From: Candidatus Aenigmatarchaeota archaeon
Lineage (GTDB): Archaea; Aenigmatarchaeota; Aenigmatarchaeia; QMZP01; QMZT01
Length of the DNA: 64,000 bases
Reading direction: 5' to 3'
Assembly: GCA_963726265.1 (NCBI GenBank)
Contig: CAVSBQ010000002.1
Span: 6,486-70,485 of the forward strand
Positions within the stretch are counted from its first letter, which is position 1. Every line of letters starts with the position of its first letter. Under the pieces are notes generated by a model. It had not been told where the DNA came from. It worked only from the letters and a program-made list of their open reading frames with translations, and searched no databases. Positions 1,825 through 63,487 of the stretch are shown here, in pieces. Position numbers and translations under genes: made by a program.

Positions 1825-3246
1825 ATGAAAGAATTTAGGAAACTGGGCATCATAGAGCCCATAGTGAAAGTAATAGAGGAACAGAAGTTCGCCAAGCCGA
1901 GCGAGATACAGGAAAAATCGATTCCCGCTGTTGTTGCGGGGAAGGACGTGATAGGAGGCTCGGCGACGGGCTCGGGCAAGACGCTCGTGTTCGGGGCCGG
2001 CATAATCCAGCACGTCGAGCGCGGCCGCGGCCTTCAGTCGCTCATACTCACGCCGACAAGGGAGCTGGCCGAACAGGACGCGAAGGCGCTGGAAATGTTC
2101 TCGAAATACAAGCCGCTGGAAATAATAGCGGTTTACGGCGGCGTCTCGATAAACCCGCAGATTGACGCACTGAGGACAGCGGATGTCGTGGTCGGAACGC
2201 CAGGCAGGATACTGGACCACCTCGAGAGAAGGACCATTTATCTCGGCAACGTGAGAATCCTCGTCCTGGACGAGGCCGACCGCATGCTCGACATGGGCTT
2301 CATCGACGACGTCGAGGATATAATCAGGCACTGCCCGCACGAAAGGCAGACGATGCTTTTCTCCGCGACCATAACCACGGATATTTCGCGCCTGGCGCAG
2401 AACTACATGAGGAACCCGGTCGAGATTTCGGCCGAGAGCTATGTCGACCCGAAAAAGCTGCAGCAGACCTATTATGACGTGCCGGACAACATGAAGTTTT
2501 CGCTGCTCGTCCACCTGCTGAGGCACGAGAAAGCGGGGCTGGTCATGGTCTTCTGCAACACGCGCAGCAACGTCGATTTCGTGGCGAACAACCTCAGGCT
2601 TAACGGCGTCGACGCGGAGGCGATACACGGCGGCTTCTCGCAGGACAAGAGGAGCAAGGCCATGGAGAACTTCCACGCTAAAAACGTTTACGTGCTCGTG
2701 TGCACGGACGTCGCTGCCAGGGGACTGGACATCAAGGGCGTATCGCATGTTTACAATTATGACACCCCGAAGGAGAGCAAGCAATACATCCACAGGATAG
2801 GCAGGACCGCGAGGGCAGGCAACGAAGGCAATGCCATAAGCATCCTTTCCGAGCGCGACCACGATAACTTTCGCCGAGTCCTGCGAGACAACGAGCTGAG
2901 CCCGCACATGGAACCGATGGAGCTGCCGCAATTCGAAAGGGCGCAGATAAGGTGGAGGCAGCCGTCGCGCTTCGATCGCGGCGAAGGCGGTTACCGTGGG
3001 CGAAGAGAAGGCTATGGCCATCGTGAAGGCGGTTACGGAAGCCGCCGCGGCTATGGCGGAGGCGGTGGTCATCCCGGCAGAACGCATGAAGGCGGGAGCC
3101 ACAGGCCGCAGCATGAAAGCGGACGCAGCGACGGCGGCCAAAGCGGAGGCGCCCAACATGAAAGGCGCCACGAAGGCGGCGGCCACCACCAGGAGCGCCG
3201 CGGCCACTCGGACCACCGCGAACGCAGGGGCGGTTACCGCAGATAA
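1825..3246 (+). CDS. DEAD-box ATP-dependent RNA helicase with an Arg/Gly/His-rich C-terminal tail
   Basis: Motifs present are GSGKT (I), DEAD (II), SAT (III) and HRIGRTARAG (VI). The ATG is at 1825, with an alternative GTG at 1816. The last ~95 aa are low complexity (GYRGRREGYGHREGGYGSRRGYGGGGGH...). Confidence 0.93.
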   Translation: MKEFRKLGIIEPIVKVIEEQKFAKPSEIQEKSIPAVVAGKDVIGGSATGSGKTLVFGAGIIQHVERGRGLQSLILTPTRELAEQDAKALEMFSKYKPLEIIAVYGGVSINPQIDALRTADVVVGTPGRILDHLERRTIYLGNVRILVLDEADRMLDMGFIDDVEDIIRHCPHERQTMLFSATITTDISRLAQNYMRNPVEISAESYVDPKKLQQTYYDVPDNMKFSLLVHLLRHEKAGLVMVFCNTRSNVDFVANNLRLNGVDAEAIHGGFSQDKRSKAMENFHAKNVYVLVCTDVAARGLDIKGVSHVYNYDTPKESKQYIHRIGRTARAGNEGNAISILSERDHDNFRRVLRDNELSPHMEPMELPQFERAQIRWRQPSRFDRGEGGYRGRREGYGHREGGYGSRRGYGGGGGHPGRTHEGGSHRPQHESGRSDGGQSGGAQHERRHEGGGHHQERRGHSDHRERRGGYRR

Positions 3247-8982: not shown

Positions 8983-9034
8983 TACGATTTATTTGCAATA
9001 ACTGAATTTAAATCTTCACTGTAATTATATTATT

Positions 9035-10050
9035 ATGAAAAAACCAACCATCTGCTATTCTCTTTCCATTCTTGCCATTTTTGTTTTTTCGTCCATTATC
9101 CTCGCGGCCGGCGCGGGGGCGGCCAAGAGCCAAATGACAACAAACCCCTACAGCATAGGCATAAGTGGAGCGTTATACTGCGATACTGGCTGCGGAGGCA
9201 CATGCTCTTCATATTGCATAAGAACGAACTGTCCTCACGTAGTTGTTACCGGATGTCCTTCCTGCAATGCATATTGCACCAGAACCTGCAACAAGGCCAC
9301 GTGCGGCGCTGAATGTCGATACGATAGCGACTGCACTGCTGATTATTGCGCAGGCACATGCGGAACGGGCACGAACAGCTGCATTTGGAGGGATTATTTC
9401 TGCGACACCTCAGCATGCACGAAATGCTCGTGCACATATACGGCCTACGACGCGGATGCTTCATCGTCATACTGCACCGGTTGCAAGGGTTCGGGTTACT
9501 GGGCTCTTGGCGGCGAGGGGTCCGGGAACTGCTGCGGTGATGACAGCAACGAATACGTGATTACGGAAAAGAGCAGCGCAGACGCGCCAGCAGGTTATAA
9601 CGATGGCGGAAAAACATGCTGTGATACGAGCAGCTGACTGCGCTTATACAGCATATGGTTATGCTGACATATGCAATGCATATGGAAGCGTGTCCGACCC
9701 CGCTATTCCCAATAAGGCATATTGCGGCTCGGGCAACACATGGTACGGCGGCGATTCCGGCTCAGGCACATGCACAGCAATAGCCGGCGCAGGCAGATGG
9801 AACATCGGCGGTGAAGTTGACTGCCACAACCTGCTGCGGAGACGATAATGGCGAGTACTACAGGTATTGCCAGGCCGCGGCCGGCTTCCCTGACGCTAGA
9901 AGCTGCACCAGCGCGCATAACGCGTGCTGCGACTCGGCGACGGACTGCGTGGCGACGGACGGGACGACGTGCGTGGCCAGCGGCACGTATATGGACGCCG
10001 ACTGGGACGGGGACGACGACTACTGCGACTCAGGAATATGGTATGACTGA
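9035..10050 (+). pseudogene. secreted cysteine-rich protein with repeated CCGDD-x-EY motifs, two +1 frame disruptions
   Basis: It has an N-terminal signal/anchor (LSILAIFVFSSIILAAGAGA). Cys content is very high. NCCGDDSNEYV and TCCGDDNGEYY recur across three successive frames (2 to 0 to 1) near 9600-9640 and 9810-9850. Confidence 0.65.
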
Positions 10051-10116
10051 ATCCTGAGAAAAAAATAAATTATCTGAGCTTCATCATCCTGTTCAGAGCC
10101 TTTCTCGCTTTCTTCG

Positions 10117-10972
10117 CTACGTCGTCGGGGACGTGACCTCGTTAGTCTCGTATTTCAGGCAATCGTAGACCTTTTCCAGCGTGATCATCTTCATGTTCTC
10201 GCACGTGCCGCCGGCGGGGTAGAATTGCTTCCCCGGGACTTCGCGGTCCAGGCGGTGGCACATGCCCTCTTCTGTCGCGACTATGAACTCCTTCGCCTCC
10301 GACGCCTTCGCGTATTTTATCATGCCGCCCGTGCCGCAGACGCAGTCCGCCAGCTTCAGCACTTCCGCAGGGCATTCCGGGTGGGCGAGGACCTTCGCGC
10401 CCGGCCTTTCCATCTTCATGAACTTTACCAGGTCGGAAACTATGAAGTCGTGCACGTAGCAGAAGCCGTGCCACGGGATTATCTTCTTGTCCGTTTTCGT
10501 CTGCGCGTAGGCGGCCAGGTTCTTGTCAGGCACGAAGATTATCTCCTTCTTCTTGATGCTCCTGATGGCCTTCTCGAAATTCGCGGAGGTACAGCATATG
10601 TCGCTTTCCGCCTTCGTCGCGGCGCTGGTGTTGATGTAGGTTACGGCCGCGGCCTTGGGGAATTCCTCCTTCTTGGCCTTCAGCGACGTCGCCGTCAGCC
10701 ATCGCCGCCATGGGGCATTTCGCCTCCATGTCGGGGAGCAGGACCTTCTTCTTCGGGTTCAGTATCTTCGCCGACTCGGCCATGAAGTCCACGCCGCAGA
10801 ACACGATTATTTTCGCCCTCGTCTCCTTCGCGCGGAGGGCGAGTTCGAACGAGTCGCCTATGTAATCCGCCACGTCGTAAATCTCAGGCCTCTGGTAGTT
10901 GTGGCATAGGATAACCGCCTTCTTCTCCTTCTTCAGCGCGATAATCTCGCGGACCAGCTCCTTTTTGTCCAT
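10117..10972 (-). pseudogene. nadA: quinolinate synthase (NadA), one frame disruption near 10699
   Basis: Recognisable segments are [23 protein letters not shown], ...CPMAAM, then a shift to [40 protein letters not shown] ... AHPECP ... ATEEGM. The ATG is at 10972. The longer upstream in-frame extension looks spurious. Confidence 0.88.
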
Positions 10973-11759: not shown

Positions 11760-11930
11760 GCTTGATTATTTCCTCTCGCTTATATTTATATTGAAATTAT
11801 TATATTAGAGCGGAGTTTTTCCTACCGTCAAGTATAAAAAACTTATCTACATATAAAAACTAAGTAATCACTGACAAGGTATTAAAAATAAATAATATCT
11901 TTTTACCCGTTAAGATTTCCGAGGAAAAGC

Positions 11931-12335
11931 ATGTCCGCAGACGAGCCCGTAAATCTGGATTCTATTGAAATCAACCTTACTGCGAGCATGGTCTGCGCGA
12001 ACCTGAACCGCCTCTGCATCCTTTATCTTCTGAGGAAATGCGACAACAATGCGATGCAGGCGGAGAAAATCGCTTCCACGTTAGGCATCTCGCACAGGAC
12101 GGTCCTCTACCACCTCGACATCCTGAAGGACTACGGATTAGTCGAAGTGCGCGAGTTCAGGAAAAAGGGTGCGAAGCTCCTGCGCTCGGTCTGGGGCCTC
12201 AGCGGGGAGAACGACGACGACGTCGAGAAGGTCTTCGGCAGGATCTACAGGAAGTTCGAGACGGACGCGCTGGACAAGATGGTGAGGTTCAGCCAGAACG
12301 GCATGGCCTCGTGCTCGAGGAAGAAGCTGAACTGA
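11931..12335 (+). CDS. ArsR-family winged-helix transcriptional regulator
   Basis: RLCILYLLRK...MQAEKIASTLGISHRTVLYHLDILKDYGLVEV is a typical ArsR/SmtB HTH. Confidence 0.8.
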   Translation: MSADEPVNLDSIEINLTASMVCANLNRLCILYLLRKCDNNAMQAEKIASTLGISHRTVLYHLDILKDYGLVEVREFRKKGAKLLRSVWGLSGENDDDVEKVFGRIYRKFETDALDKMVRFSQNGMASCSRKKLN

Positions 12336-12450
12336 CATAACCATCTTTTTTGAAAACATGAGCAAGGCAAAGCTCCAGAACATCGCTGATTATGGTCAAA
12401 ACCATCCGTTTTTAAGGTTTTTATACCGGGAATTGACATAATTTTATTTA

Positions 12451-12467
12451 TACCGGGATTCCCGGTA
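12451..12467. promoter_or_regulatory. perfect 8-1-8 palindrome TACCGGGA-T-TCCCGGTA upstream of the AbiEi-like gene; candidate operator
   Basis: The palindrome is seen directly. The half-site-containing string TTTATACCGGGA also occurs at 12420-12431. It lies ~80 nt upstream of the 12548 start in an AT-rich promoter-like region. Confidence 0.4.
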
Positions 12468-12547
12468 AAAACGAAGTGTTATATGATAACTTTATATACT
12501 TTATAATTTATATTATAAAATCATAAAAATGTGATTTTGTGATATGT

Positions 12548-13180
12548 ATGAAAAAGGATATCATACTTAAAAAATTGTACCTCGATGGCAAAGATTTCGT
12601 CACTTCAGGCGATATCAAGGAATATTGCGCTTCCCTGGAACTGAAATATGATTCCACGTTCAGATATTTGCTTTCGAGAAAATATCTAATAAGAATTTTC
12701 AAGGGCGTATTCTACCTGAAAACGCTCGACGAGACAAAGTTCGGAAGAAACAAATACAGCCCTCTTGAACTGGTTGCAAAGGGCCTTGAGATGAAAGGCG
12801 TGAAAAAATGGTATTTCGGCCTTTATAGCGCTCTAAAAATGAACAACATGACTCATGAAAATTTCACAGTGGATTACGTAATGAATGACAAGATATTCAG
12901 GGCGAAACCCATGGAAATAGCGGACTCTAAATTCAGATTCCTGAAGATCAGGGACAACCTGCTCGATTTCGGGATTATAGGCGATAAAATAAGGCATTCC
13001 GACCCAGAAAAAACAATTCTCGATTTCATCTACATCTGGCGTTATAACGGAATACCGGAAGATAAAATAATAATGGACATATCGGAATATTCAAAGAACG
13101 CCTCGCGAAAAAAGCTTGCAGATTACGCGAAAAAATACCCCAAATCGGTAAGAATGATTACGGATAAAGTGGTTGGATGA
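12548..13180 (+). CDS. AbiEi-like antitoxin / wHTH regulator (type IV TA family)
   Basis: The region is low in GC. LIRIFKGVFYLKT, WYFGLYSALKMNNMT and HSDPEKTILDFIY match the AbiEi-family pattern. It overlaps the downstream NTase gene by 4 nt. Confidence 0.7.
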   Translation: MKKDIILKKLYLDGKDFVTSGDIKEYCASLELKYDSTFRYLLSRKYLIRIFKGVFYLKTLDETKFGRNKYSPLELVAKGLEMKGVKKWYFGLYSALKMNNMTHENFTVDYVMNDKIFRAKPMEIADSKFRFLKIRDNLLDFGIIGDKIRHSDPEKTILDFIYIWRYNGIPEDKIIMDISEYSKNASRKKLADYAKKYPKSVRMITDKVVG

Positions 13181-14058
13181 GAAAGGATTTCGTGAACGAG
13201 GTCGCAAAAAAACTGAAAATAAAAAGAAAAGACCTCGTGGAGAAGGATTTTATCCTGCACCAGCTTCTTTCGAGCCTTTCAGAGGACAAATTCTTCCGTG
13301 AAAACTTCCTGTTCAAAGGGGGCACGTGCCTTATCAAATGCTATTTGGGATATTTCAGGTTCTCTGAAGACATGGATTTCACCTGGAAAAAACAAGAGGC
13401 GTTTAAGGGGAGGTCACAGAAGGCAATAAGGCGCCACCTCTCGGAAATCATAAACGCCGTGGGAAAATTGCTTGAAAAAGCGGCAAAGGAGAACGGCCTT
13501 GATTTCCGGTGCGACAAGAAAGACAGGCATTACGTTGAGCTTGGCGGAGGAAACAAAATCGTCACCTTCAAGATGTGGTACGCTTCCGGATTCCTGAACC
13601 GCGAATCCTTCGTGAAAATCCAGATAAATTTCCTCGAAAACCTGCATTTCCCAGGCGTTAAAAAACCCGCAAAGAGCTTATTGGAAGCAGGCAAACAAAC
13701 CGATGAAATCCGGTTGCTCTTTCCGGATGAGTTCAAACAATATTCAAAAAGAGTAGCATTCGATATTTACGATATCAGGGAAATACTGTGCGAAAAAATA
13801 AGGGCCATGCTCACCAGAAAAGGAACGAAAGCGAGGGATTTCGTCGACGTATACCTGATTTCCAAAAAATTCGGCATCAGACCAGAAAGCCTCGAAAAGG
13901 TAATCGAGGAAAAGATCACGTTCATGATGAAGCTCTATTCGAAATATAAAAACAACATCAGCGAAAAGAGACGCCTGCTGGAAACACTGCAGGAAACCCG
14001 AACGTTGTCTATGAGACTGATTACGTTGACACCACGAAGCCCCACACGGAGAAGGTAG
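13177..14058 (+). CDS. AbiEii/DUF1814-family nucleotidyltransferase toxin; the 3' end runs into foreign (giant-gene) sequence
   Basis: FLFKGGTCLIKCYLGYFRFSEDMDFTW is the NTase core of AbiEii. After ~aa 270 (about 13,985) both GC content and sequence switch to the giant-protein repeat read out of frame (...TLSMRLITLTPRSPTRRR*). Confidence 0.7.
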   Translation: MRKDFVNEVAKKLKIKRKDLVEKDFILHQLLSSLSEDKFFRENFLFKGGTCLIKCYLGYFRFSEDMDFTWKKQEAFKGRSQKAIRRHLSEIINAVGKLLEKAAKENGLDFRCDKKDRHYVELGGGNKIVTFKMWYASGFLNRESFVKIQINFLENLHFPGVKKPAKSLLEAGKQTDEIRLLFPDEFKQYSKRVAFDIYDIREILCEKIRAMLTRKGTKARDFVDVYLISKKFGIRPESLEKVIEEKITFMMKLYSKYKNNISEKRRLLETLQETRTLSMRLITLTPRSPTRRR

Positions 14059-17000
14059 TCACGGGCCCGCAGGAACCAGGCACTGGCAACATCCACAAAT
14101 ACATAACCAACAACACAGTGATAGAGCTCACGTGCACTGACCAGCAGCCACACCCATCAGACCATGTGACCCTTAACTGGCAACTCTACTGGAGCCAGAG
14201 CTGCGTCGAGCCGAATTGGCAGCCGATAGACAGCGGCAGCGAGACTGACGGCAACGTTCAGTTAACGAACCTTGAAGATTCGTGCCACAAGCTTGTCTAC
14301 TACTGCGCGGACATCCTTGGCAACACGGAAGACACGCAGGTCGAGATAGACGCGGTCGACAACAAATACCCGCTTGTGCACAAGGATGTCGGCCAGTTCA
14401 AGTATCCGTATTCAGGCGCACCTTTCATGTACATAGAAGCCTACGATGTTGAGGACGCACCTGTGTATGTGACGCAGGGGACCCCGATAACACTGACATG
14501 CGAAGACCAGAACCCGCACCCGGTCGACCAGGTCAAGATATACTACAAATATTACGTGGACGGGATAATCAACGATACGCAGGGCGAGGACTGGACCCTT
14601 TACGGCGGCCAGTTCACTTACCCAGAGGACACATACCACGAGCTGTATTATTATTGCATAGACAAGCTCGGCAACAAGGGACCGACGCACGTCGAGATGG
14701 ACATAGTCGACACGCAGAAACCCCAGACTGTGAAGACCATCACTGGTCCGCAGTTCAACGGCCAGGGCAACATACACAAGTACATAACGAAAGATTCGGT
14801 AATTGACCTTACATGCACGGATCCGCAGCCTCATCCGGTAGACCACGTAACCCTTAACTGGAAACTCTACTGGAGCCAGAACTGCGTCGAACCTTTATGG
14901 ACGCAGATAGGCAGCGGCAGCGAGACTGACGGCAACGTTCAGTTAACGAACCTTGAAGATTCGTGCCACAAGCTTGTCTATTACTGCGTCGATGCCCTGA
15001 ACAACATTGAAAGCACTCAGGAAGAAATAGACGCGGTCGACAACCAGGCGCCGAACGGCACCAAGAACGTCGGCAACCCGGCTATACCTTGCATTCAGAT
15101 GCCACCCGTTGACGGACCTGGTTTGACGATGACAGTTGCACCGCAGCCCGACTGCTACTGGGTCCGCGACCACGTCACAAACATAACGCTTGACTGCACT
15201 GACGCACAGCCTCACCCAATCGGCGGAGAGGTAATGTGCTACCAGATAAAGTTCGACGGCGAAACCTCAGACCTTACACAGCAATACTGCACGCAGTTCG
15301 GCGGCAAGATGGAAGACGGATGGTGCTGCGCTGACGTAGCAGGCGAAAAGAGCTACAAATTCGACTTCCAGGAAGATTCCGTTCACACGCTTGAATACTA
15401 CTGCAAGGACGCTTTCAACAACCAGAACCTGAAAGACCTTGAGACGTTCAAGGTCGATTCAGTCCCGCCAACGACGATAAAGACGTACATCAATCCGTTC
15501 TACGTGGACCCGCAGACAGGCTATCATTACATAGACACGGCATCGAGGGTCAATCTCACGGCGACTGACGGCGGAGCCATCTGCCACGTCGAAGGCATGA
15601 CGACATACTACTGGTACACGGTCGTACCTGATAACTATTGCACGGGAGCATGCGCCCCGATGGAGCACAAGGAATGGAGCGTCTACTCCGAGCCCTTCGG
15701 AATCCCGGAGGAATCGTGCCACCTTATAGAGTTCTACAGCGTGGACGCGCTGGGCAACAAGGAGCAGAAGCACTACCAGTGTGTGTTCGTCGACAAGAAG
15801 GCGCCTGTGACGACGAAGAGCTACGGGACCCCGAGATATCCAAACGATGCGTTGCATCCGAAGTGGATAAACTCCAGCACGGACATAACGCTGACGGCCG
15901 TGGACCAGACGCCACATCCGTCCGGAGTCAAGGAATTGAATTACAGGGTAACCCTTGTGGACAAAGACTATTGCGAGAACACTGAGCTTTGCCTGCGCGG
16001 AGTGCCAGGCCTCGACAAAGCGTACGACAAGGCATCGCCATTGCTTTATGGCGTTGATGGCAGCGCGAGCTACACGTTCAGGATACCCGACGACTCGTGC
16101 CACATGATAGAATACTACAGCGTAGACAATGTTGGCAAGACAGAACCGGTCAGAAGACAGTGCGTATACGTGGACAACCTGCCGCCGAATTCGACGAAGA
16201 CTTTCGACGGCTTCAACATGACATGCGACCAGCTGCCCTGCAAGAGCGCGGGCGACTGCAACTACTACATAAACAAGGACACGAAGATAGTCCTGAGCTG
16301 CACAGACCAGAACCCGCACCCGGTCGACCAGGTCAAGATAATGTACAGATACTTCCTGGACGACGTAATCAATGCAACGCAGGGCAAGGACTGGACCTTA
16401 TACGATCCGCAGAATCCGATACAATACAATGAAGATTCAAAGCACACTCTCGAATGGTACTGCGAGGACGCCCTCGGCAACAGGGAAACGACTCACACCC
16501 AGGTAGAGAGAGTAGACACGACCCCGCCGACAACGGTCAAGACGTTCAGCGGCCCGACATACCCGTTAGACGAGGCTAATCCCAACTACTGGGTGACATC
16601 GGACACCGCGATAACGCTGACGACGACTGACGGCGGACCGATATGCGCGGCAGGACCTGCAACACTTTATTATCAGGTGTGGTGGGACTCCAACTGCGAC
16701 GGAACTGTCGACACTAAACAGGTGGACAGCCACGTGCACACGGACGCGAACTGCAACCTCAACAAGACATTATATCTTCAGAAGGAATGCCTTCACGAGA
16801 TAAAGTGGCATGCAGTTGACGCGCTCGGCAACGTCGAGACAGAGCACGTGCAGTTCCACAAAGTCGACAACACTCCTCCGCACGTCCTGATACTGAAGCC
16901 GGTTGACGGCTGGTATTCTGACGGCGAGGACATAGCGATTGTCACTGAAGCCGAAGACCTGAACAACGTGAACAGCTCTTGCGAACAGAGAGGCGGTGTT

Positions 17001-20000
17001 TGCGATGTGATAGGCATCGGCATATCCTGCGGCAATCCGAACGACTGCAACGGCCTTGGTACAAACTGCGCGGTCGGCATAGCCGAGGATGCGCAGTGCT
17101 ACGCGTACCTTGTCGACGTTGAGAGGACGATTGACAACATAAGGGACAAGAAGATACAGCAGATAATGATAGAGAACATGTCGCTTGACACTGACGGCAC
17201 GCTGCTTTACAACAAGGCAACCAAGCAGTGCGAAGGCTACGCCACAATCCCGGCCGAGAGCGGTCTTGAGGATGGCATAAAGATACTTGTCGTCGGAGTC
17301 GCGGACAACCTGCACAACTACGCAGACAGCCTTGACGAGATAGGCAGGGCCATAAACGAGAGATGCGGCTGCGACGTCTTCGACATGTGCGACAGCGAAT
17401 GCGTCAGGGACGCATTGCAGGACATAGTATTAATATGGAACCTGCCGAAGATCGGCATAGACAACCACGCTCCAGTCGTGGAGATAACTGCGCCTTCAGA
17501 GAACTCGCTGTTCGGCGGCGAACAGGTATACGTTAGCGCCGAAGTGAGCGATTCCGAGAGCGGCCAGGTAACCTCGACGATAACGAGCGGCACGCCATGC
17601 TACATAACGCTTGGCGGCGTCTCGATGGGATCTGTCCCGTACCAGAACGACGCGAGAAAATGCGCGGGAACCATAATGATACCCGAGGACAACGACTTCC
17701 CGCAGGGAACGCAGAGCCTCGAGGTTAGTGTAGCCGACAACGCGGGCAACATCGGAAGCGATTCGATAAACGTTAACGTTGACACTACAAAGCCGGAAAT
17801 ATACGTCGACTACCCTGATGAAAACATGTTCGTAAAGGGCACGGTCGGCGTAGAAATTGTGGTCAGAGACTCCAACCTTCCCGGCGAGCCGACATCGTCA
17901 GACCCGAAAGACCTGCACGAATACGTCGAGGTCTCCACGGACAACGGCCAGACATGGGAAGTAACCGAGAACTGCGCCTACTGGGGCGTTGGCCACTACA
18001 AATGCACTTACAGCTGGGACACGACCAGCGAAACTGACGGCATGGCATACGGCATAGTCGCGCAGAATGACCGACCTTGCCGACAACACGCAGATACTCC
18101 GAGGCCGTGCTCGTGATAGTCGACAACGGCGCGCCGGAAGGCGTGTACATGGTCGACCCGGTCAAGGACAAGATAGTGCAGGGCACGATAACGCTTAAAG
18201 CGCTCGCCACGGATTACGTGAGCGGCGTGACAGGCGTCAATATATACGTCAACAGCGTCCCGTCATTCAATTGCGTTGCAACATTAGTTGGCGGGACATG
18301 GCAATGCAGTTTCAACAGCGCGACATTGCCTGACGGACAGCACAGCGCATATGCGGTTGCGACTGACAAGCTTGGTCAGACAACGACATCGGCGAGCGTG
18401 CCGTTCATCATTGACAACAACGCGCCAAGCACCCCCGTGCTTAGCATATACCCGACAACGAATGGCTACGACACCGACGGCGTGGTGACATGGAAATGGA
18501 CTGACGCTACGGATGCCGGTTCAGGCATAGATTATTATGTAATAGAAATAGGCAGCCCCGTCGTGTACCAGAGCAAGGTCTTTGGAACAATATTCACCAT
18601 AAGCGACCTTTCAGAGACGTCTCATTGCGCAAAGGTAAAGGCTGTCGACAAGGCGGGCCATGAAAGCGCATGGTCAAGTACAGCATGCACAATAGTTGAC
18701 AAGACACCGCCGTCACCGGTCAGCATAGGCGTTGACACGGAGACTGTGGACAAATTTGCCGGCGGAGTCTACTACGACAGGGACGGCGAATTCGACGTGA
18801 TCTGGAGCGGTGGCAGCGACGCGAAGTTCGACCACTTCCAGCTTTACGAGAACGGCGCCGGCGAATACCAGGACACGAACTACAGGTCAACTAGATTCAA
18901 GGAAGACGGAACATACAAATATTACGTGACCTCGAACGACCTTGCAGGCTGGACGACCAAATCAGGCGAAGTCACGGTCGTGGTTGACACGCACGCGCCA
19001 GTCGTGGACATAACAAACATGTATCCGGGAATAGGATTCTTCCTGTTCACGTACACGGCCACCGACGCTGACCCGAGCTCTGGCATAGACTCGCTGGTAG
19101 TCAGCGGCATAGAAGGGCCGGCCTACGGCATTTGCTCAGGAACGCTTCCGACTGGCTTCTGCACGGTGTTCATGGGAACAGCGGCGAAGCTGACAGCATG
19201 CGACAAGGCAGGCAACTGCGGCTACGACACGACACTCGGAAACCACGCTGACATAACGCCACCGACAATAATCTACTCTTCACCCAGCGGCGTGATAAAG
19301 TACAACCAGGTCACAATTAACGTAACCACGGACGAGGCTGCAAGCTGCTACTACAGCGATGTCGACGACCTTGAAGGCATGGATGACATGATCAGCAACG
19401 ACATGATACATCACTCGGTCAGCCTAGGCACGCTTGCGGACGGCCTGTACGTCTACCACGTGCAGTGCGAGGACATGTCGGGCAACATGATGGACCACTC
19501 GAAGACGATAGTCTTCTACGTGAACACCGACAGCCAGTATTGCTACAGAACAGAAGAACTTAAGGCGGGATGGAACACGTTCTTCCTGCCGCAGCTTGTC
19601 TTGGACGACATCAACTTCAACTGCGGTAGCAAGCCGTACGCGACTGAAGACGTGCTGAGTTCAATGGAAGGCAAGTATAGCATAATCTGGTACTATGATG
19701 GTCAAAACTGGCTTTCATATGACCCGATGTATCCGGAATACTCGACACTTACGCAGTTCAACGACCAGTTAAGTAATCCATACTACATAAAGCTGACCGA
19801 GCCTGTGAAGCTCGGCTTACAGTGTGACCAGGGATGTCAAAAGGAAGTGACAGGCGGCCAGTGCGTCGAAGGCGAGCAGCCTTCATGGGCGATATACAAG
19901 GACGGTCTTTACTGGGCATGGGCTTCGCCTTGCGACGGCGGATGCAGCCAGGCATATCCGAACAACGTTCCGGGATGGAGATACGCTACTGTAGAAGAAT

Positions 20001-20401
20001 GGGCCAACAGGCCTCTCAAGAGCGACTTCCTGGTGAATGACATCCTGATATGTGGGTCACAGTATTTCGACAACTATCACACTCATTGCGACTATGAAAA
20101 CCCTGAGGTCAGAGTTCCTTACGGCGGCTATTACGAGCTGTGGTTCGTGACAGACTGCACGAACACCCCGGTATGCGGCAACGACGTGACTGAGATAGGG
20201 GAGGAGTGCGACGATGCCAACACAGTCAATGGTGATGGCTGCTCGGACACGTGCCTGATTGAAAGCGCCGAAAGAAGCATGTCCCCTGAGATAAACACCT
20301 ATGTATGTGATGACGGAATAGACAACGACGGCAATGGCCTTATAGACTGCGCTGACCCGGGTTGCACTTACAATACCTATTGCTACGGGGGAGATGTCTA
20401 A
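13995..20401 (+). CDS. giant extracellular protein (~2,100 aa) of tandem Ig-like modules with Cys-rich C-terminal repeats; 5'-truncated, two adjacent frame disruptions at ~18,060-18,100
   Basis: At least 12 modules of ~105 aa follow the pattern VDxxxPxT...LTCTDxxPHPVDxV...EDSxHxLxYYCxDxLGNxE. The reading frame is open from 13,950, with no start codon or signal peptide. ORFs 14118-18116 and 18077-20401 join through a short third-frame segment (RMTDLADNTQ). The C-terminus carries CGNDVTEIGEECDDANTVNGDGCSDTC (a DUF4215-type Cys repeat) and DDGIDNDGNGLIDCADPGC. Confidence 0.8.
14231..14299 (+). repeat. 69-nt exact intragenic repeat (second copy at 14912-14980) within ~230-nt near-identical module cores
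   Basis: The string cagcggcagcgagactgacggcaacgttcagttaacgaaccttgaagattcgtgccacaagcttgtcta is identical at both positions. A second 37-nt exact pair lies at 14504-14540 and 16304-16340. Confidence 0.9.
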
Positions 20402-20491: not shown

Positions 20492-21691
20492 ATGAAAAAT
20501 AACTTCGCTTTATCCGGAATCGTTTTTATAACACTTGTTTCAATTTTTTCGAGTTCAGCTTTCGCAACGCCATCATGCGTTTTTGCCGGCAACGTTACAG
20601 TAAACGGGAACGCTGTAGCCGGAAATAGCGTTCACGCCTATCTCAACGGAACAGGAGAGTACCTGGCGACCGGAATTCCTGGCTATCCAGATGGTAAATA
20701 CAACATTCCGATTGAAGGCAATGATGGCAAATACATCATATTCAAGGTTGAAAATAGCAGCCTTCCGTTCAACAACACGGTCGAACAAGGACCCCAACTC
20801 TGTAACAATCCTAACAATTATACAATTGTTCATCTGACTGTTGTTGATGATGACAGCGATGGTTATGCGCCACCGGAAGACTGCAACGACAACGACGCAG
20901 CGATCCATCCCGGCGCGACCGAGCTCTGCAACGGCATTGACGACAACTGTAACGGACAAATTGATGAAGGCTCATATTATTGCGACAACGATGGCGATGC
21001 TTATGTTAGCAAAGTCCTTGGCAGCTGCACCGTAGGCAAGAGCTGCGGGACGACCGCTGGAAACGACTGCAACGACGGCAATGCTGCGATTCACCCCGGT
21101 GCGACTGACCTCTGCGATGGCATAGACAACGACTGCGACGGCATCGATAATGGATGCGGCGGCGGTGGCGGAGGGGGCGGCGGAGGCGGTGGCGGAGCCA
21201 GCGCTTACTGCGGTGACGGAATCCTCCAGAAATACAGGGGAGAGGAATGCGAAGCGGATTCGGACTGCGAGACTGATTTTGTTTGTAATACCACATGCAG
21301 CTGCGTGCCATGCACTGAGTCATGGAACTGCGGAGCCTGGGGCGAATGCTCAACAGGCGGCGTGCAGACGAGAACCTGCACCGATGCGAATGCATGCGGC
21401 ACGACCCTGCAGAAGCCTACCGAGAGCCAGACGTGCACGACAGGCGGCAGCGGCTCATCTTCAACGACGCCGCTGACTGTCGTTTGCGGCAACGACGTAT
21501 GCGACGAAGGCGAGACCTGCGAGACGTGCGAAGAGGACTGCGGCGCATGCGCTGGCGCAACGAACCAGGGACTCCTGGGCGGCATCACGGGCATGTTCAT
21601 GGGAACCCAGGGAGCTGCGATGCTCGGCCTGATGGCGCTGCTGATAGTGCTGCTCCTGCTTTTGCTGACCATGAAGAGAAAAAAGAAGTAA
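20492..21691 (+). CDS. secreted, C-terminally membrane-anchored Cys-rich protein with MopE-type putative metal-binding motifs and a Gly13 tract
   Basis: It has a signal peptide (FITLVSIFSSSAFA). DCNDNDAAIHPGATELCNGIDDNCNGQIDEG occurs about twice. A run of 13 Gly lies at 21158-21196. CGNDVCDEGETCETCEEDCGAC is present. The C-terminal TM segment is followed by KRKKK. Confidence 0.8.
   Translation: MKNNFALSGIVFITLVSIFSSSAFATPSCVFAGNVTVNGNAVAGNSVHAYLNGTGEYLATGIPGYPDGKYNIPIEGNDGKYIIFKVENSSLPFNNTVEQGPQLCNNPNNYTIVHLTVVDDDSDGYAPPEDCNDNDAAIHPGATELCNGIDDNCNGQIDEGSYYCDNDGDAYVSKVLGSCTVGKSCGTTAGNDCNDGNAAIHPGATDLCDGIDNDCDGIDNGCGGGGGGGGGGGGGASAYCGDGILQKYRGEECEADSDCETDFVCNTTCSCVPCTESWNCGAWGECSTGGVQTRTCTDANACGTTLQKPTESQTCTTGGSGSSSTTPLTVVCGNDVCDEGETCETCEEDCGACAGATNQGLLGGITGMFMGTQGAAMLGLMALLIVLLLLLLTMKRKKK

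Positions 21692-56085: not shown

Positions 56086-63487
<7,402 letters not shown>

What the first reader, a model, noticed from the sequence alone, without database searches (positions are those of the whole stretch)
12340..14060. Low-GC AbiEi/AbiEii cassette fused abruptly to a 5'-truncated giant surface-protein gene
At ~13,950-14,000 the AT-rich AbiEii-like ORF changes composition and continues out of frame into sequence that, in another frame, is a canonical module of the giant protein (NPNVVYETDYVDTTKPHTEKVVTGPQ...IELTCTDQQPHP). The giant gene therefore has no start codon or signal peptide, and the toxin gene has a chimeric 3' end. Possible explanations are that the cassette's arrival deleted the 5' part of the adhesin gene, that a recombination junction lies here, or that the assembly is chimeric at a repeat.
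Basis: seen in the sequence. Interest (0 to 1): 0.65.

Follow-up and report, generated by a model that had tools for sequence, protein, structure and literature searches.

The report
Deletion fusing broken toxin to surface-protein gene
A deletion of several kilobases in a small DPANN archaeon (Aenigmatarchaeota) removed the end of an AbiE toxin gene and the promoter, start and first third of the giant surface-protein gene next to it, joining the two remnants; this is real but ordinary gene decay.

Summary
The AbiEii ORF (13177-14058) is native only up to codon 270 (base 13986). Its last 23 codons are giant-gene sequence read out of frame. The giant gene has no promoter, start codon or signal peptide.

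A 92%-identical metagenome contig (L001) carries the same HTH-abiEi-abiEii neighbourhood with a full-length 316-aa AbiEii. After it come a 327-bp spacer holding a conserved promoter and the start of the giant gene (MYNKNLKAYVGAVGAT...). L001's homology to the window stops exactly at 13986.

More distant Aenigmatarchaeota have Pop5-HTH-giant gene with no cassette. There the giant gene is an intact ORF of more than 3,200 codons that begins with the same signal peptide.

So the cassette arrived first, between the HTH gene and the giant-gene promoter. A later deletion in the window's lineage removed 141 bp of abiEii, the spacer and roughly 1,050-1,650 codons.

A second assembly (L002, 99.3% identical) is collinear across the junction, which argues against a chimeric assembly.

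The toxin keeps catalytic motifs I-IV but loses a conserved C-terminal helical segment. The antitoxin gene is intact. Related contigs show other, independent abiEii disruptions with abiEi kept.

Verdict: a real deletion junction of low novelty.

The parts
11931..12335 (+). ArsR/SmtB-type HTH regulator gene. It is the conserved left-hand neighbour and serves as the syntenic anchor.
   Evidence: Pfam HTH_20/HTH_5. NCBIfam ArsR/SmtB subfamily model, below its cutoff. 90% aa identity to L001 and L012, 78% to L004, 59-62% to L073. It lies directly upstream of the giant gene in cassette-free relatives L073, L075, L076 and L080.
12336..12547 (+). AT-rich spacer (GC 0.29) at the left edge of the low-GC cassette. 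It holds the presumed abiE promoter, a perfect palindrome TACCGGGATTCCCGGTA (12451) and a direct repeat TGTGAT..TGTGAT (12530).
   Evidence: Composition; sequence. The promoter and operator roles are inferred, not tested.
12548..13180 (+). abiEi antitoxin/repressor gene, intact (210 aa from ATG 12548; the listed ORF starts at GTG 12539).
   Evidence: PADLOC AbiEi PDLC02273 E=2.6e-52, profile positions 13-201 of 205. 210-aa orthologues in L001 and L002. 82% aa identity to L001 and 91% to L004. Its stop overlaps the abiEii start as ATGA.
13177..13986 (+). Native part of the abiEii toxin gene, codons 1-270.
   Evidence: PF08843 and PADLOC PDLC02321. 96% aa identity to L001's full-length AbiEii up to base 13986. 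Motifs I-IV are present: G48-G49, D65/D67, K207..R214 and R220-D221-F-V-D224 (alignments; motif definitions in PMC3985639).
13986..13987 (.). Deletion junction (breakpoint).
   Evidence: Homology to L001, L012 and L004 ends at 13986 (13982 for L004). L002 is identical to the window through the junction.
13987..14058 (+). Chimeric tail of the abiEii ORF: 23 codons plus the stop, which are giant-gene sequence read out of frame.
   Evidence: Frame translations. None of the aligned AbiEii homologues matches this tail.
13987..18070 (+). Giant Ig-like surface-protein gene remnant, first frame. It begins inside a module at ...(T)AGN and has no promoter, start codon or signal peptide.
   Evidence: Open frame 13950-18113. 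Homologues P0124, P0125 and P0126 at 47-56% identity. Internal module repeat 14025-14363 / 14706-15044 at 78.6% identity. First start codon is GTG 14118, with no Shine-Dalgarno-like sequence before it.
18066..18095 (+). Two +1 frame changes in the remnant: 'AATG' and 'CAGA' each stand where homologues have a single codon.
   Evidence: Sequence, compared with P0124 and P0127 (...AKATDLAGNTGYSE...). Not covered by L002. Other genes in the window are frameshifted too, so these may be assembly indels.
18071..20401 (+). Giant gene remnant, second frame, running to the natural stop codon.
   Evidence: Pfam Big_13, Big_7 and Big_3_3. 48-67% aa identity to the C-terminal parts of P0124, P0126 and the L076 gene. 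Followed by the syntenic MopE-repeat gene 20492-21691.

Best explanation
This is the scar of one genomic deletion in an Aenigmatarchaeota (DPANN) lineage.

Ancestral gene order: Pop5(-) | ArsR-type HTH(+) | ~400-bp spacer with a conserved promoter | giant secreted Ig-repeat protein of more than 3,200 aa.

Step 1. In one sub-clade, a low-GC abiEi-abiEii toxin-antitoxin operon was inserted between the HTH gene and the giant gene's promoter.

Step 2. In the lineage of the window and L002, a deletion ran from abiEii codon 270 to a point inside the giant gene. It removed:
- the last 46 codons and the stop of abiEii (141 bp);
- the 327-bp spacer with the promoter;
- the giant gene's ribosome-binding site, start codon and signal peptide;
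- roughly 1,050-1,650 further codons.

Consequences:
- The toxin ORF runs 23 codons into out-of-frame giant-gene sequence. It has lost a conserved C-terminal helical segment, so it is probably inactive or unstable (inferred).
- The antitoxin gene is intact.
- The giant gene remnant cannot be secreted and very probably is not translated, so it is a pseudogene (inferred).

Shown by comparison: the breakpoint, the gene order in relatives, the order of the two events and the support from a second assembly. Inferred: the loss of function of both genes, and illegitimate recombination with little or no microhomology as the mechanism.
For: 1. **Intact cassette in a close relative.** L001 (JGI Ga0315295_10016783) aligns to window 12490-13986 at 91.6% and stops there. 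It then continues with the rest of abiEii (316 aa, P0121), a 327-bp spacer and ATG-MYNKNLKAYVGAVGAT.
2. **The same holds in two more contigs.** L012 and L004 (79% nt, syntenic from nadA to abiEii) also continue as intact abiEii sequence past the breakpoint.
3. **Cassette-free relatives.** L073, L075, L076 and L080 have Pop5-HTH-giant gene with no AbiE. In L075 and L076 the giant ORF is uninterrupted for more than 3,209 and more than 3,193 codons. It starts M..NK.LKAYVGAVGATKLTAI.VMACILGVFAVSM..VFA. The same promoter block (TGGAACAAA.T..TTTATAAACGTT...AAGGTATATAAA) precedes it in L001 and L066 as well.
4. **The missing pieces are not in the window.** That promoter block, the KAYVGAVGAT coding sequence and the N-terminal domains are absent from all 64 kb.
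5. **Size of the loss.** The first retained module maps to about residue 648 of P0126 (plus at least 396 residues of upstream open frame), residue 369 of P0124 (plus a 720-aa upstream ORF), and codon ~1,646 of the L075 gene.
6. **Second assembly.** L002 is collinear with window 12100-17874 at 99.3% identity and is identical through the junction.
7. **What the toxin lost.** Residues conserved in 57 homologues are missing: E279 and F295 (invariant), and F274, W276, G277, L282-284, E289, F292, Y293, L296, F302 and L303 (at least 90% conserved). So are two confidently modelled helices, 278-282 and 289-315.
8. **Independent decay of the toxin gene.** L012 has an out-of-frame internal deletion in abiEii with abiEi intact. 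L066 keeps only abiEii residues 283-313.
Against: - The ancestral sequence of the deleted giant-gene part is not known for this lineage. The deletion size is therefore an estimate from relatives at 47-67% identity whose module number varies. Microhomology at the right breakpoint cannot be checked.
- Whether L002 was assembled from reads independent of those behind the window is unknown.
- Loss of toxin function is inferred. All four catalytic motifs remain.
- The two extra frameshifts in the remnant cannot be counted as decay, because several conserved genes in the window are frameshifted too.
- Only 64 kb of the 1.1-Mb contig could be searched for a relocated 5' part. The database search for it was dominated by Cys-rich repeats, so its negative result is weak.
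Confidence: 0.85

Rival explanations
1. Assembly chimera: the assembler wrongly joined an AbiE-bearing contig to an internal repeat of the giant gene, and the true genome has an intact abiEii and an intact giant gene.
For: - The giant gene is internally repetitive (78.6% module repeat). Three related short-read contigs (L001, L004, L012) end at or just after abiEii, so this region does break assemblies.
- The window shows many frame changes in conserved genes, which suggests an imperfect assembly.
Against: - L002 is a separate assembly with 33 substitutions and 6 deleted bases relative to the window. It carries exactly the same junction and 3.9 kb beyond it.
- The left side of the junction is unique abiEii sequence, not a repeat.
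- The two sides share no repeat that could mislead an assembler; the nearest thing is an imperfect 11-nt resemblance (CTGCTGGAAAC / CTGCAGGAAAC).
Confidence: 0.04
2. Insertion-coupled truncation: the AbiE cassette, already lacking its 3' end, landed directly inside the giant gene and its arrival deleted the 5' part.
For: - The cassette has foreign composition (GC 0.40 against 0.54).
- It is absent from more distant relatives at this position, so it was acquired at some point.
Against: - L001, L012 and L004 have the cassette at the same left-hand position next to the HTH gene, and their abiEii sequence continues past the breakpoint.
- In L001 the complete 3' end of abiEii is followed by the giant-gene promoter and start codon.
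- L066 retains the abiEii 3' tail followed by that promoter and a signal-peptide-bearing giant gene.
- One insertion followed by a deletion is much more parsimonious than two insertions at the same left junction.
Confidence: 0.05
3. Functional rearrangement: the promoterless giant-gene fragment is kept on purpose. It could be a silent donor cassette for recombination into expressed giant surface-protein genes, or it could be transcribed from the abiE promoter to give a new product.
For: - The remnant is on the same strand directly downstream of abiEi-abiEii, and the native end of the operon is deleted, so read-through transcription is plausible.
- The remnant is almost identical between the window and L002: 1 difference in 3.9 kb.
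- Giant genes at this locus are mosaic between lineages. The L066 gene shares only its C-terminal part.
Against: - There are no near-identical tracts between the remnant and any other gene in the 64-kb window, only its own internal repeats.
- The first in-frame start (GTG 14118) has no ribosome-binding sequence and no signal peptide.
- Two further frame changes lie at 18066-18095.
- The near identity to L002 is expected if the two simply diverged recently.
Confidence: 0.03

Closest known systems
AbiE (AbiEi/AbiEii) toxin-antitoxin / abortive-infection systems and the related MenA/MenT systems of M. tuberculosis. The toxin is a DUF1814/PF08843 nucleotidyltransferase and the antitoxin is a COG5340-type wHTH protein.
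   Same: - Bicistronic operon with the antitoxin gene first and a 4-nt ATGA overlap.
- Full-length match to an AbiEi model, and AbiEii/PF08843 matches.
- NTase motifs I-IV as defined by Dy et al. 2014 (PMC3985639) are all present, as is S63, invariant. I place S63 at the phosphoacceptor position by sequence inspection; the phosphoacceptor is described in bioRxiv 10.64898/2026.01.19.700257.
- Weak sequence match to MenT4 (6y56, E=0.0016).
- The best fold match of the modelled full-length relative is JHP933 of H. pylori, deposited as a putative nucleotidyltransferase (4o8s/4ok0, E~9e-6, TM 0.4-0.5).
   Different: - The host is a DPANN archaeon.
- The toxin gene is truncated after codon 270 of 316 and carries a 23-residue foreign tail.
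- No activity was tested.
- AbiEi has no Pfam-A hit and is recognised only by PADLOC models.
Toxin-first decay of toxin-antitoxin loci, leaving orphan antitoxins and toxin pseudogenes. This is general TA biology, cited from my own knowledge.
   Same: In every damaged copy seen that still has the cassette, the toxin gene is hit and the antitoxin gene stays intact:
- window: 3' deletion;
- L002: additional frameshifts;
- L012: internal out-of-frame deletion.

L066 has lost abiEi together with most of abiEii.
   Different: Here the inactivating lesion is a multi-kilobase deletion that also destroyed the neighbouring gene, rather than a point mutation or a small indel.
Giant Ig-like, Cys-rich repeat surface proteins of DPANN archaea. 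Sources annotate the homologues only as 'Ig-like domain-containing protein', from Aenigmatarchaeota and Parvarchaeota metagenome-assembled genomes.
   Same: - Big_13, Big_7 and Big_3_3 domains.
- 47-56% identity to P0124, P0125 and P0126.
- Same position between the HTH gene and a MopE-repeat gene as in L073, L075 and L076.
   Different: - The window copy lacks about the first third of the protein: the signal peptide, the N-terminal domain and the Cys-rich MopE/disintegrin-like region.
- It also lacks its promoter.
- Module number and even whole central regions differ between lineages.

Membership tests
AbiE toxin-antitoxin system | Two-gene operon with the antitoxin gene upstream of the toxin gene, translationally coupled or overlapping. 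| tested here: met
   abiEi 12548-13180 and abiEii 13177-... are on the same strand with a 4-nt ATGA overlap. The same arrangement is found in L001, L002 and L004.
AbiE toxin-antitoxin system | Antitoxin of the AbiEi type (COG5340-like: N-terminal wHTH plus a C-terminal domain). | tested here: met
   PADLOC AbiEi PDLC02273 E=2.6e-52, covering profile positions 13-201 of 205, plus nine further AbiEi models. No Pfam-A or NCBIfam hit. Domain structure was not modelled.
AbiE toxin-antitoxin system | Toxin of the DUF1814/PF08843 nucleotidyltransferase family with motifs I-IV. | tested here: met
   PF08843 E=6.6e-27 and PDLC02321 E=1e-71. G48-G49, D65/D67, K207..R214 and R220-D221-x-x-D224 are invariant in the alignments. 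Motif definitions are from PMC3985639.
AbiE toxin-antitoxin system | Complete toxin polypeptide, including the C-terminal helical segment. | tested here: not met
   The window protein covers profile positions 3-264 of 296, against 3-292 for P0121. The last 46 residues are replaced by 23 unrelated ones. The lost residues are conserved, and helices 278-282 and 289-315 are confidently modelled.
AbiE toxin-antitoxin system | Toxicity neutralised by the antitoxin; nucleotidyl transfer to tRNA; phage abortive infection. | not testable with these tools
   Needs expression and toxicity assays.
Secreted giant Ig-repeat surface protein (orthologue of the L075, L076 and P0126 genes) | Ig-like repeat modules and orthologous position in the genome. 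| tested here: met
   Big_13, Big_7 and Big_3_3. 47-67% identity to homologues. Synteny Pop5-HTH-...-MopE gene.
Secreted giant Ig-repeat surface protein (orthologue of the L075, L076 and P0126 genes) | Own promoter, start codon and N-terminal signal peptide. | tested here: not met
   The promoter block and the KAYVGAVGAT N-terminus found in L001, L075 and L076 are absent from the window. The first in-frame start is an internal GTG at 14118.
Deletion-generated pseudogene pair | Collinear homology to an intact relative on both sides, with an abrupt loss of the intervening segment. | tested here: met
   Left side: L001 matches up to 13986 and then diverges. Right side: orthologous giant-gene body and downstream MopE gene. 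The intervening abiEii 3' end, spacer and gene start are present in L001. The right-hand breakpoint in the ancestor could not be seen directly.

The most novel reading that the evidence does not exclude
The spacer between the ArsR-type regulator gene and the hypervariable giant surface-protein gene may be a recurrent landing pad for toxin-antitoxin modules in Aenigmatarchaeota. AbiE sits there in the window's clade, MNT-HEPN has displaced it in L066, and further NTase-type pairs flank the orthologue in L074.

On this reading the TA module constrains which deletions of the giant gene can survive: only those that also disable the toxin while sparing the antitoxin. The window's junction would then be the footprint of TA-policed loss of a surface protein, perhaps selected as loss of a receptor or attachment protein.
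Probability: 0.08. Interest if true: 0.45.

Novelty: new member of a known kind. Interest (0 to 1): 0.2.

Why it matters
**For annotation.** The 293-aa "AbiEii" and the 1,332-aa and 774-aa "Ig-like proteins" called here are fragments of two pseudogenes. They should not be counted as a working defence system or a working adhesin in this genome.

**For biology.** This is a clean, base-resolved case of how a streamlined DPANN genome loses genes. One deletion took out a toxin's C-terminus and a third of a giant surface protein. Sister lineages preserve the intermediate states: no cassette, intact cassette, and other kinds of toxin decay. It also shows AbiE modules being acquired and then decaying toxin-first in archaea. 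None of this challenges current understanding.

Tried and rejected
- **Exact-sequence look-ups** of the window's AbiEii, HTH and AbiEi products found nothing on record. No further assemblies of the same strain could be recruited this way.
- **Viral contigs.** Scanning them for the AbiEii found no relative, so there is no sign that the cassette is phage-borne.
- **Relocated 5' part, within the window.** N-terminal regions of P0126, P0124, the L074 upstream ORF and L073's upstream frame hit only the internal modules. The promoter and signal-peptide patterns gave 0 matches.
- **Relocated 5' part, rest of the source genome.** I searched the protein database with the L076 N-terminal 1,100 aa and looked for hits on a 1,105,251-bp contig. 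None of the 120 listed hits (of 128) was on it, but DUF4215 Cys-rich repeats dominated the search, so this is a weak negative.
- **General linkage between AbiEii and giant genes.** Tested in 25 other AbiEii loci. None had an ORF of 1,500 aa or more downstream, and one had one upstream, so the linkage was rejected.
- **L066's giant gene as the ancestral model.** Rejected, because its first 2,089 aa are unrelated to the window's remnant.
- **The two frameshifts at 18066-18095 as proof of decay.** Rejected as strong evidence, because nadA and several other conserved genes in the window are frameshifted too.
- **Gene-conversion tracts** between the remnant and other genes in the window: none found.

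Full report
**1. What is in the sequence**

The region holds three same-strand genes ahead of the giant ORF.
- An ArsR-type HTH regulator lies at 11931-12335 (Pfam HTH_20/HTH_5).
- A 210-aa ORF lies at 12548-13180. It has no Pfam hit, but it matches the PADLOC AbiEi model PDLC02273 end to end (E=2.6e-52).
- A 293-aa ORF lies at 13177-14058. It matches PF08843 AbiEii (E=6.6e-27) and PADLOC AbiEii PDLC02321 (E=1e-71).

The two abiE genes overlap by ATGA. GC content is 0.40 for 12336-13986, 0.556 for the HTH gene and 0.54 for the giant ORF.

The giant-gene frame is open from 13950. It reads ...TAGNPNVVYETDYVDTTKPHTEKVVTGPQ...IELTCTDQQPHP..., and its first in-frame start codon is GTG at 14118.

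**2. Where the break is**

Among 2,985 AbiEii homologues, the closest are 305-331 aa long, and the close ones align to only about 92% of the window protein. In the alignment, similarity ends at ...SEKRRLLE(T). The tail LQETRTLSMRLITLTPRSPTRRR has no counterpart.

The window protein's own 90%-identity cluster contains a 316-aa member, P0121. P0121 is encoded on JGI contig Ga0315295_10016783 (L001).
- L001 aligns to window 12490-13986 at 91.6% identity and stops exactly at 13986.
- L012, from the same sample, does the same. L004 (79% nt, syntenic from nadA onward) aligns up to 13982.
- After GGAAACA all three read AAAGAAATTTTC.CGTGGGGCGA... (or GGGGAA... in L004). The window reads CTGCAGGAAACCCGAACG...

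The breakpoint is 13986|13987. In the giant-gene frame, the retained sequence begins inside a D-x-A-G-N-type motif near the end of a module.

**3. What used to lie between the two halves**

In L001, abiEii runs on for 46 more codons. It is followed by a 327-bp spacer and then GGAGAGGTGAGG-N7-ATG MYNKNLKAYVGAVGAT, at which point the contig ends.

A scan of GTDB species-representative genomes with an alignment of the HTH protein found eight relatives, all DPANN archaea and three of them labelled Aenigmatarchaeota. L075, L076 and L080 from that scan, together with JGI locus L073, have the order Pop5(-), HTH(+), giant gene. They have no AbiE cassette.

In L075 and L076 the giant gene is one uninterrupted ORF of more than 3,209 and more than 3,193 codons, and it runs off the fetched locus. 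It begins MNTNKMKAYVGAVGATKLTAIIVMACILGVFAVSMASVFA... (L075) or MSNKNLKAYVGAVGATKLTAIVVMACILGVFAVSMSGVFA... (L076). By inspection this is a signal peptide.

The block TGGAACAAA(C/G)T..TTTATAAACGTT...AAGGTATATAAA precedes the start codon in L001, L066, L075 and L076, and in weaker form in L073. AAACCGGTTTCA-type palindromes lie upstream of it. L001's downstream gene is therefore the orthologous giant gene with its promoter.

**4. Order of events**

The cassette sits at the same left-hand position in the window, L001, L004 and L012. L001 still has a complete abiEii together with the giant gene's promoter and start. The cassette insertion therefore came first, and a deletion followed in the window's lineage.

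The deletion removed:
- 141 bp of abiEii;
- the 327-bp spacer;
- the 5' part of the giant gene.

The size of the last item can only be estimated from relatives.
- The first retained module aligns to about residue 648 of P0126, whose reading frame is open for at least 396 more codons upstream.
- It aligns to residue 369 of P0124, which is preceded by a 720-aa ORF carrying a signal peptide and Cys-rich repeats.
- It aligns to about codon 1,646 of the L075 gene.

That gives roughly 1,050-1,650 codons, and a deletion of about 3.6-5.4 kb in total.

None of the missing parts is found anywhere in the 64-kb window. A database search with the L076 N-terminal region returned no listed protein from a 1,105,251-bp contig. 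That contig length is the one recorded for the window protein's own cluster. This search is a weak test, because Cys-rich repeat hits filled the candidate list.

**5. Is it an assembly artefact?**

ENA contig ERZ25039515:contig_57425 (L002, 5,769 bp) aligns as a single block to window 12100-17874 at 99.3% identity. It is identical to the window from 13936 through the junction and beyond. It differs from the window by 33 substitutions and 6 deleted bases, so it is not the same assembly.

The left side of the junction is unique sequence. The two sides share no repeat that could mislead an assembler. I put the chimera explanation at about 4%. I could not establish whether L002 comes from different reads.

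**6. Consequences for the genes**

*AbiEii.* It keeps motif I (G48-G49), motif II (D65, D67), motif III (K207...R214) and motif IV (R220-D-F-V-D224). These are the residues whose mutation abolishes toxicity in S. agalactiae AbiEii (PMC3985639). It also keeps S63, which by sequence inspection sits at the position of the phosphoacceptor described in bioRxiv 10.64898/2026.01.19.700257.

It loses residues 271-316. In 57 homologues, E279 and F295 are invariant. F274, W276, G277, L282-284, E289, F292, Y293, L296, F302 and L303 are at least 90% conserved. An AlphaFold2 model of P0121 (mean pLDDT 87.7, pTM 0.86) places helices at 278-282 and 289-315 with pLDDT of about 85-95 up to residue 310. Its best PDB fold match is JHP933 (4o8s/4ok0), deposited as a putative nucleotidyltransferase.

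I infer that the chimeric protein is inactive or unstable. This is not shown.

*AbiEi.* The gene is intact.

*Giant gene remnant.* It has no promoter of its own, no ribosome-binding sequence before its first start codon and no signal peptide. I treat it as a pseudogene.

It also shows two +1 frame changes at 18066-18095 relative to P0124 and P0127. I do not rely on these. Other genes in the window change frame relative to intact orthologues too: nadA, a 510-aa gene, a 202-aa gene, a 316-aa gene and a Cys-rich secreted-protein gene. The assembly may therefore carry indel errors.

**7. Wider pattern**

abiEii is damaged in several independent ways in this clade.
- The window and L002 share the 3' deletion.
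- L002 has additional frameshifts, so its gene is called as only 139 aa.
- L012 has an out-of-frame internal deletion, with abiEi intact.
- L066 keeps only abiEii residues 283-313. An MNT-HEPN pair sits where the rest of the cassette should be. A different giant gene follows that shares only its C-terminal part with the window's gene.

This fits toxin-first decay of a TA module and a variable locus. A general linkage between AbiEii homologues and giant genes was tested in 25 other loci and not found.

**8. Comparison with what is known, and verdict**

The cassette is a member of the AbiE/MenAT family by gene order, by both protein families and by the catalytic motifs. It fails the completeness criterion for the toxin, and its function cannot be tested here. 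The giant gene is an orthologue of Ig-repeat surface proteins annotated in Aenigmatarchaeota metagenome-assembled genomes.

The event is an ordinary deletion that produced two pseudogenes, documented at base resolution with the intermediate states preserved in relatives. Novelty is low: a decayed new member of a known kind.

Interest is 0.2. Its main value is to prevent these fragments from being annotated as a working defence system and a working adhesin. It is also a tidy example of gene loss in a DPANN genome.

Noticed in passing
window ~1050, ~8508, ~9640, ~9800, ~10700, 18066-18095, ~27970, ~28160: Conserved genes change reading frame relative to intact orthologues in L004, L073, L075, L077 and L080. 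Affected are nadA, a 510-aa gene, a 202-aa gene, a 316-aa gene, a Cys-rich secreted-protein gene and the giant remnant. Some sites are A6-7 homopolymers; others lie in GCAGA or ATGA contexts. The cause is either long-read indel errors or an unusual load of pseudogenes.
   Followed up: partly
L002 versus window 12844-13935: 30 of 33 substitutions and all 6 deleted bases between the two assemblies fall in 1.1 kb of abiEi/abiEii, against 1 difference in 3.9 kb of the giant remnant. In 12844-13206, L002 carries L001-type states. In 13200-13935 it has about 20 private changes, including 5 small deletions. Neutral decay alone does not explain a roughly 100-fold contrast. Possible causes are an imported allele, a strain-mixture consensus or sequencing errors.
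   Followed up: partly
L066 7830-16779 (Ga0315274_10000269): An MNT (PF01909) - HEPN (PF05168) pair sits where abiEi and most of abiEii should be. Only abiEii residues 283-313 remain (10001-10093). The conserved promoter follows, then a different 2,089-aa giant ORF. Only the C-terminal region that follows it (ORF 16662-18383) is related to the window's gene (53% aa). The locus looks like a hotspot for TA turnover and for mosaic surface-protein genes.
   Followed up: partly
L012 2207-2954 (Ga0315295_10091073): A strain from the same sample as L001 has abiEii broken by an out-of-frame internal deletion of about 125 bp (residues ~73-114). Its abiEi is intact but only 72% identical to the window's. 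Intact and broken toxin alleles therefore co-occur in one community.
   Followed up: partly
L001 369-3787: L001 has about 3.5 kb between Pop5 and the HTH gene that the window lacks (there 11762-11817 is only 55 bp). It encodes a 987-aa protein with weak methyltransferase hits and a Pur_DNA_glyco protein.
   Followed up: no
window 8994-10058: About 1 kb is absent from the syntenic contig L004. It encodes a secreted Cys-rich protein (MKKPTICYSLSILAIFVF..., ending ...DYCDSGIWYD) that is split over three frames.
   Followed up: partly
L001 6150-6180; L066 10130-10165; L075 ~10480-10510; L076 ~3030-3060: AAACCGGTTTCA-type palindromic repeats are conserved between the HTH gene (or the cassette) and the giant-gene promoter. 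They are a candidate operator for the ArsR-type regulator. They fall within the segment deleted from the window, leaving the regulator without this putative target.
   Followed up: no
window 12420-12546: Upstream of abiEi lie a repeated TTTATACCGGGA (12420, 12447), a perfect palindrome TACCGGGATTCCCGGTA (12451) and a direct repeat TGTGATTTTGTGATATG (12530) abutting the start codon. These are possible AbiEi autoregulation sites. L001 keeps TGTGATATTGTGATAT.
   Followed up: no
L074 6619-7544 and 17837-19293 (GCA_038998635.1): The orthologous giant gene (P0124) is flanked upstream by an NTP_transf_2/HTH protein with a small partner ORF. Downstream lies a 235-aa ORF followed by a 250-aa AbiEii-family gene. 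This is another TA-rich neighbourhood around the same gene.
   Followed up: no
window 14025-14363 and 14706-15044; 14493-14604 and 16293-16404: Internal module repeats of the giant remnant are 78.6% and 82% identical at the DNA level. There is no similarity to the second giant ORF of the window (57974-63487) at blastn sensitivity.
   Followed up: partly
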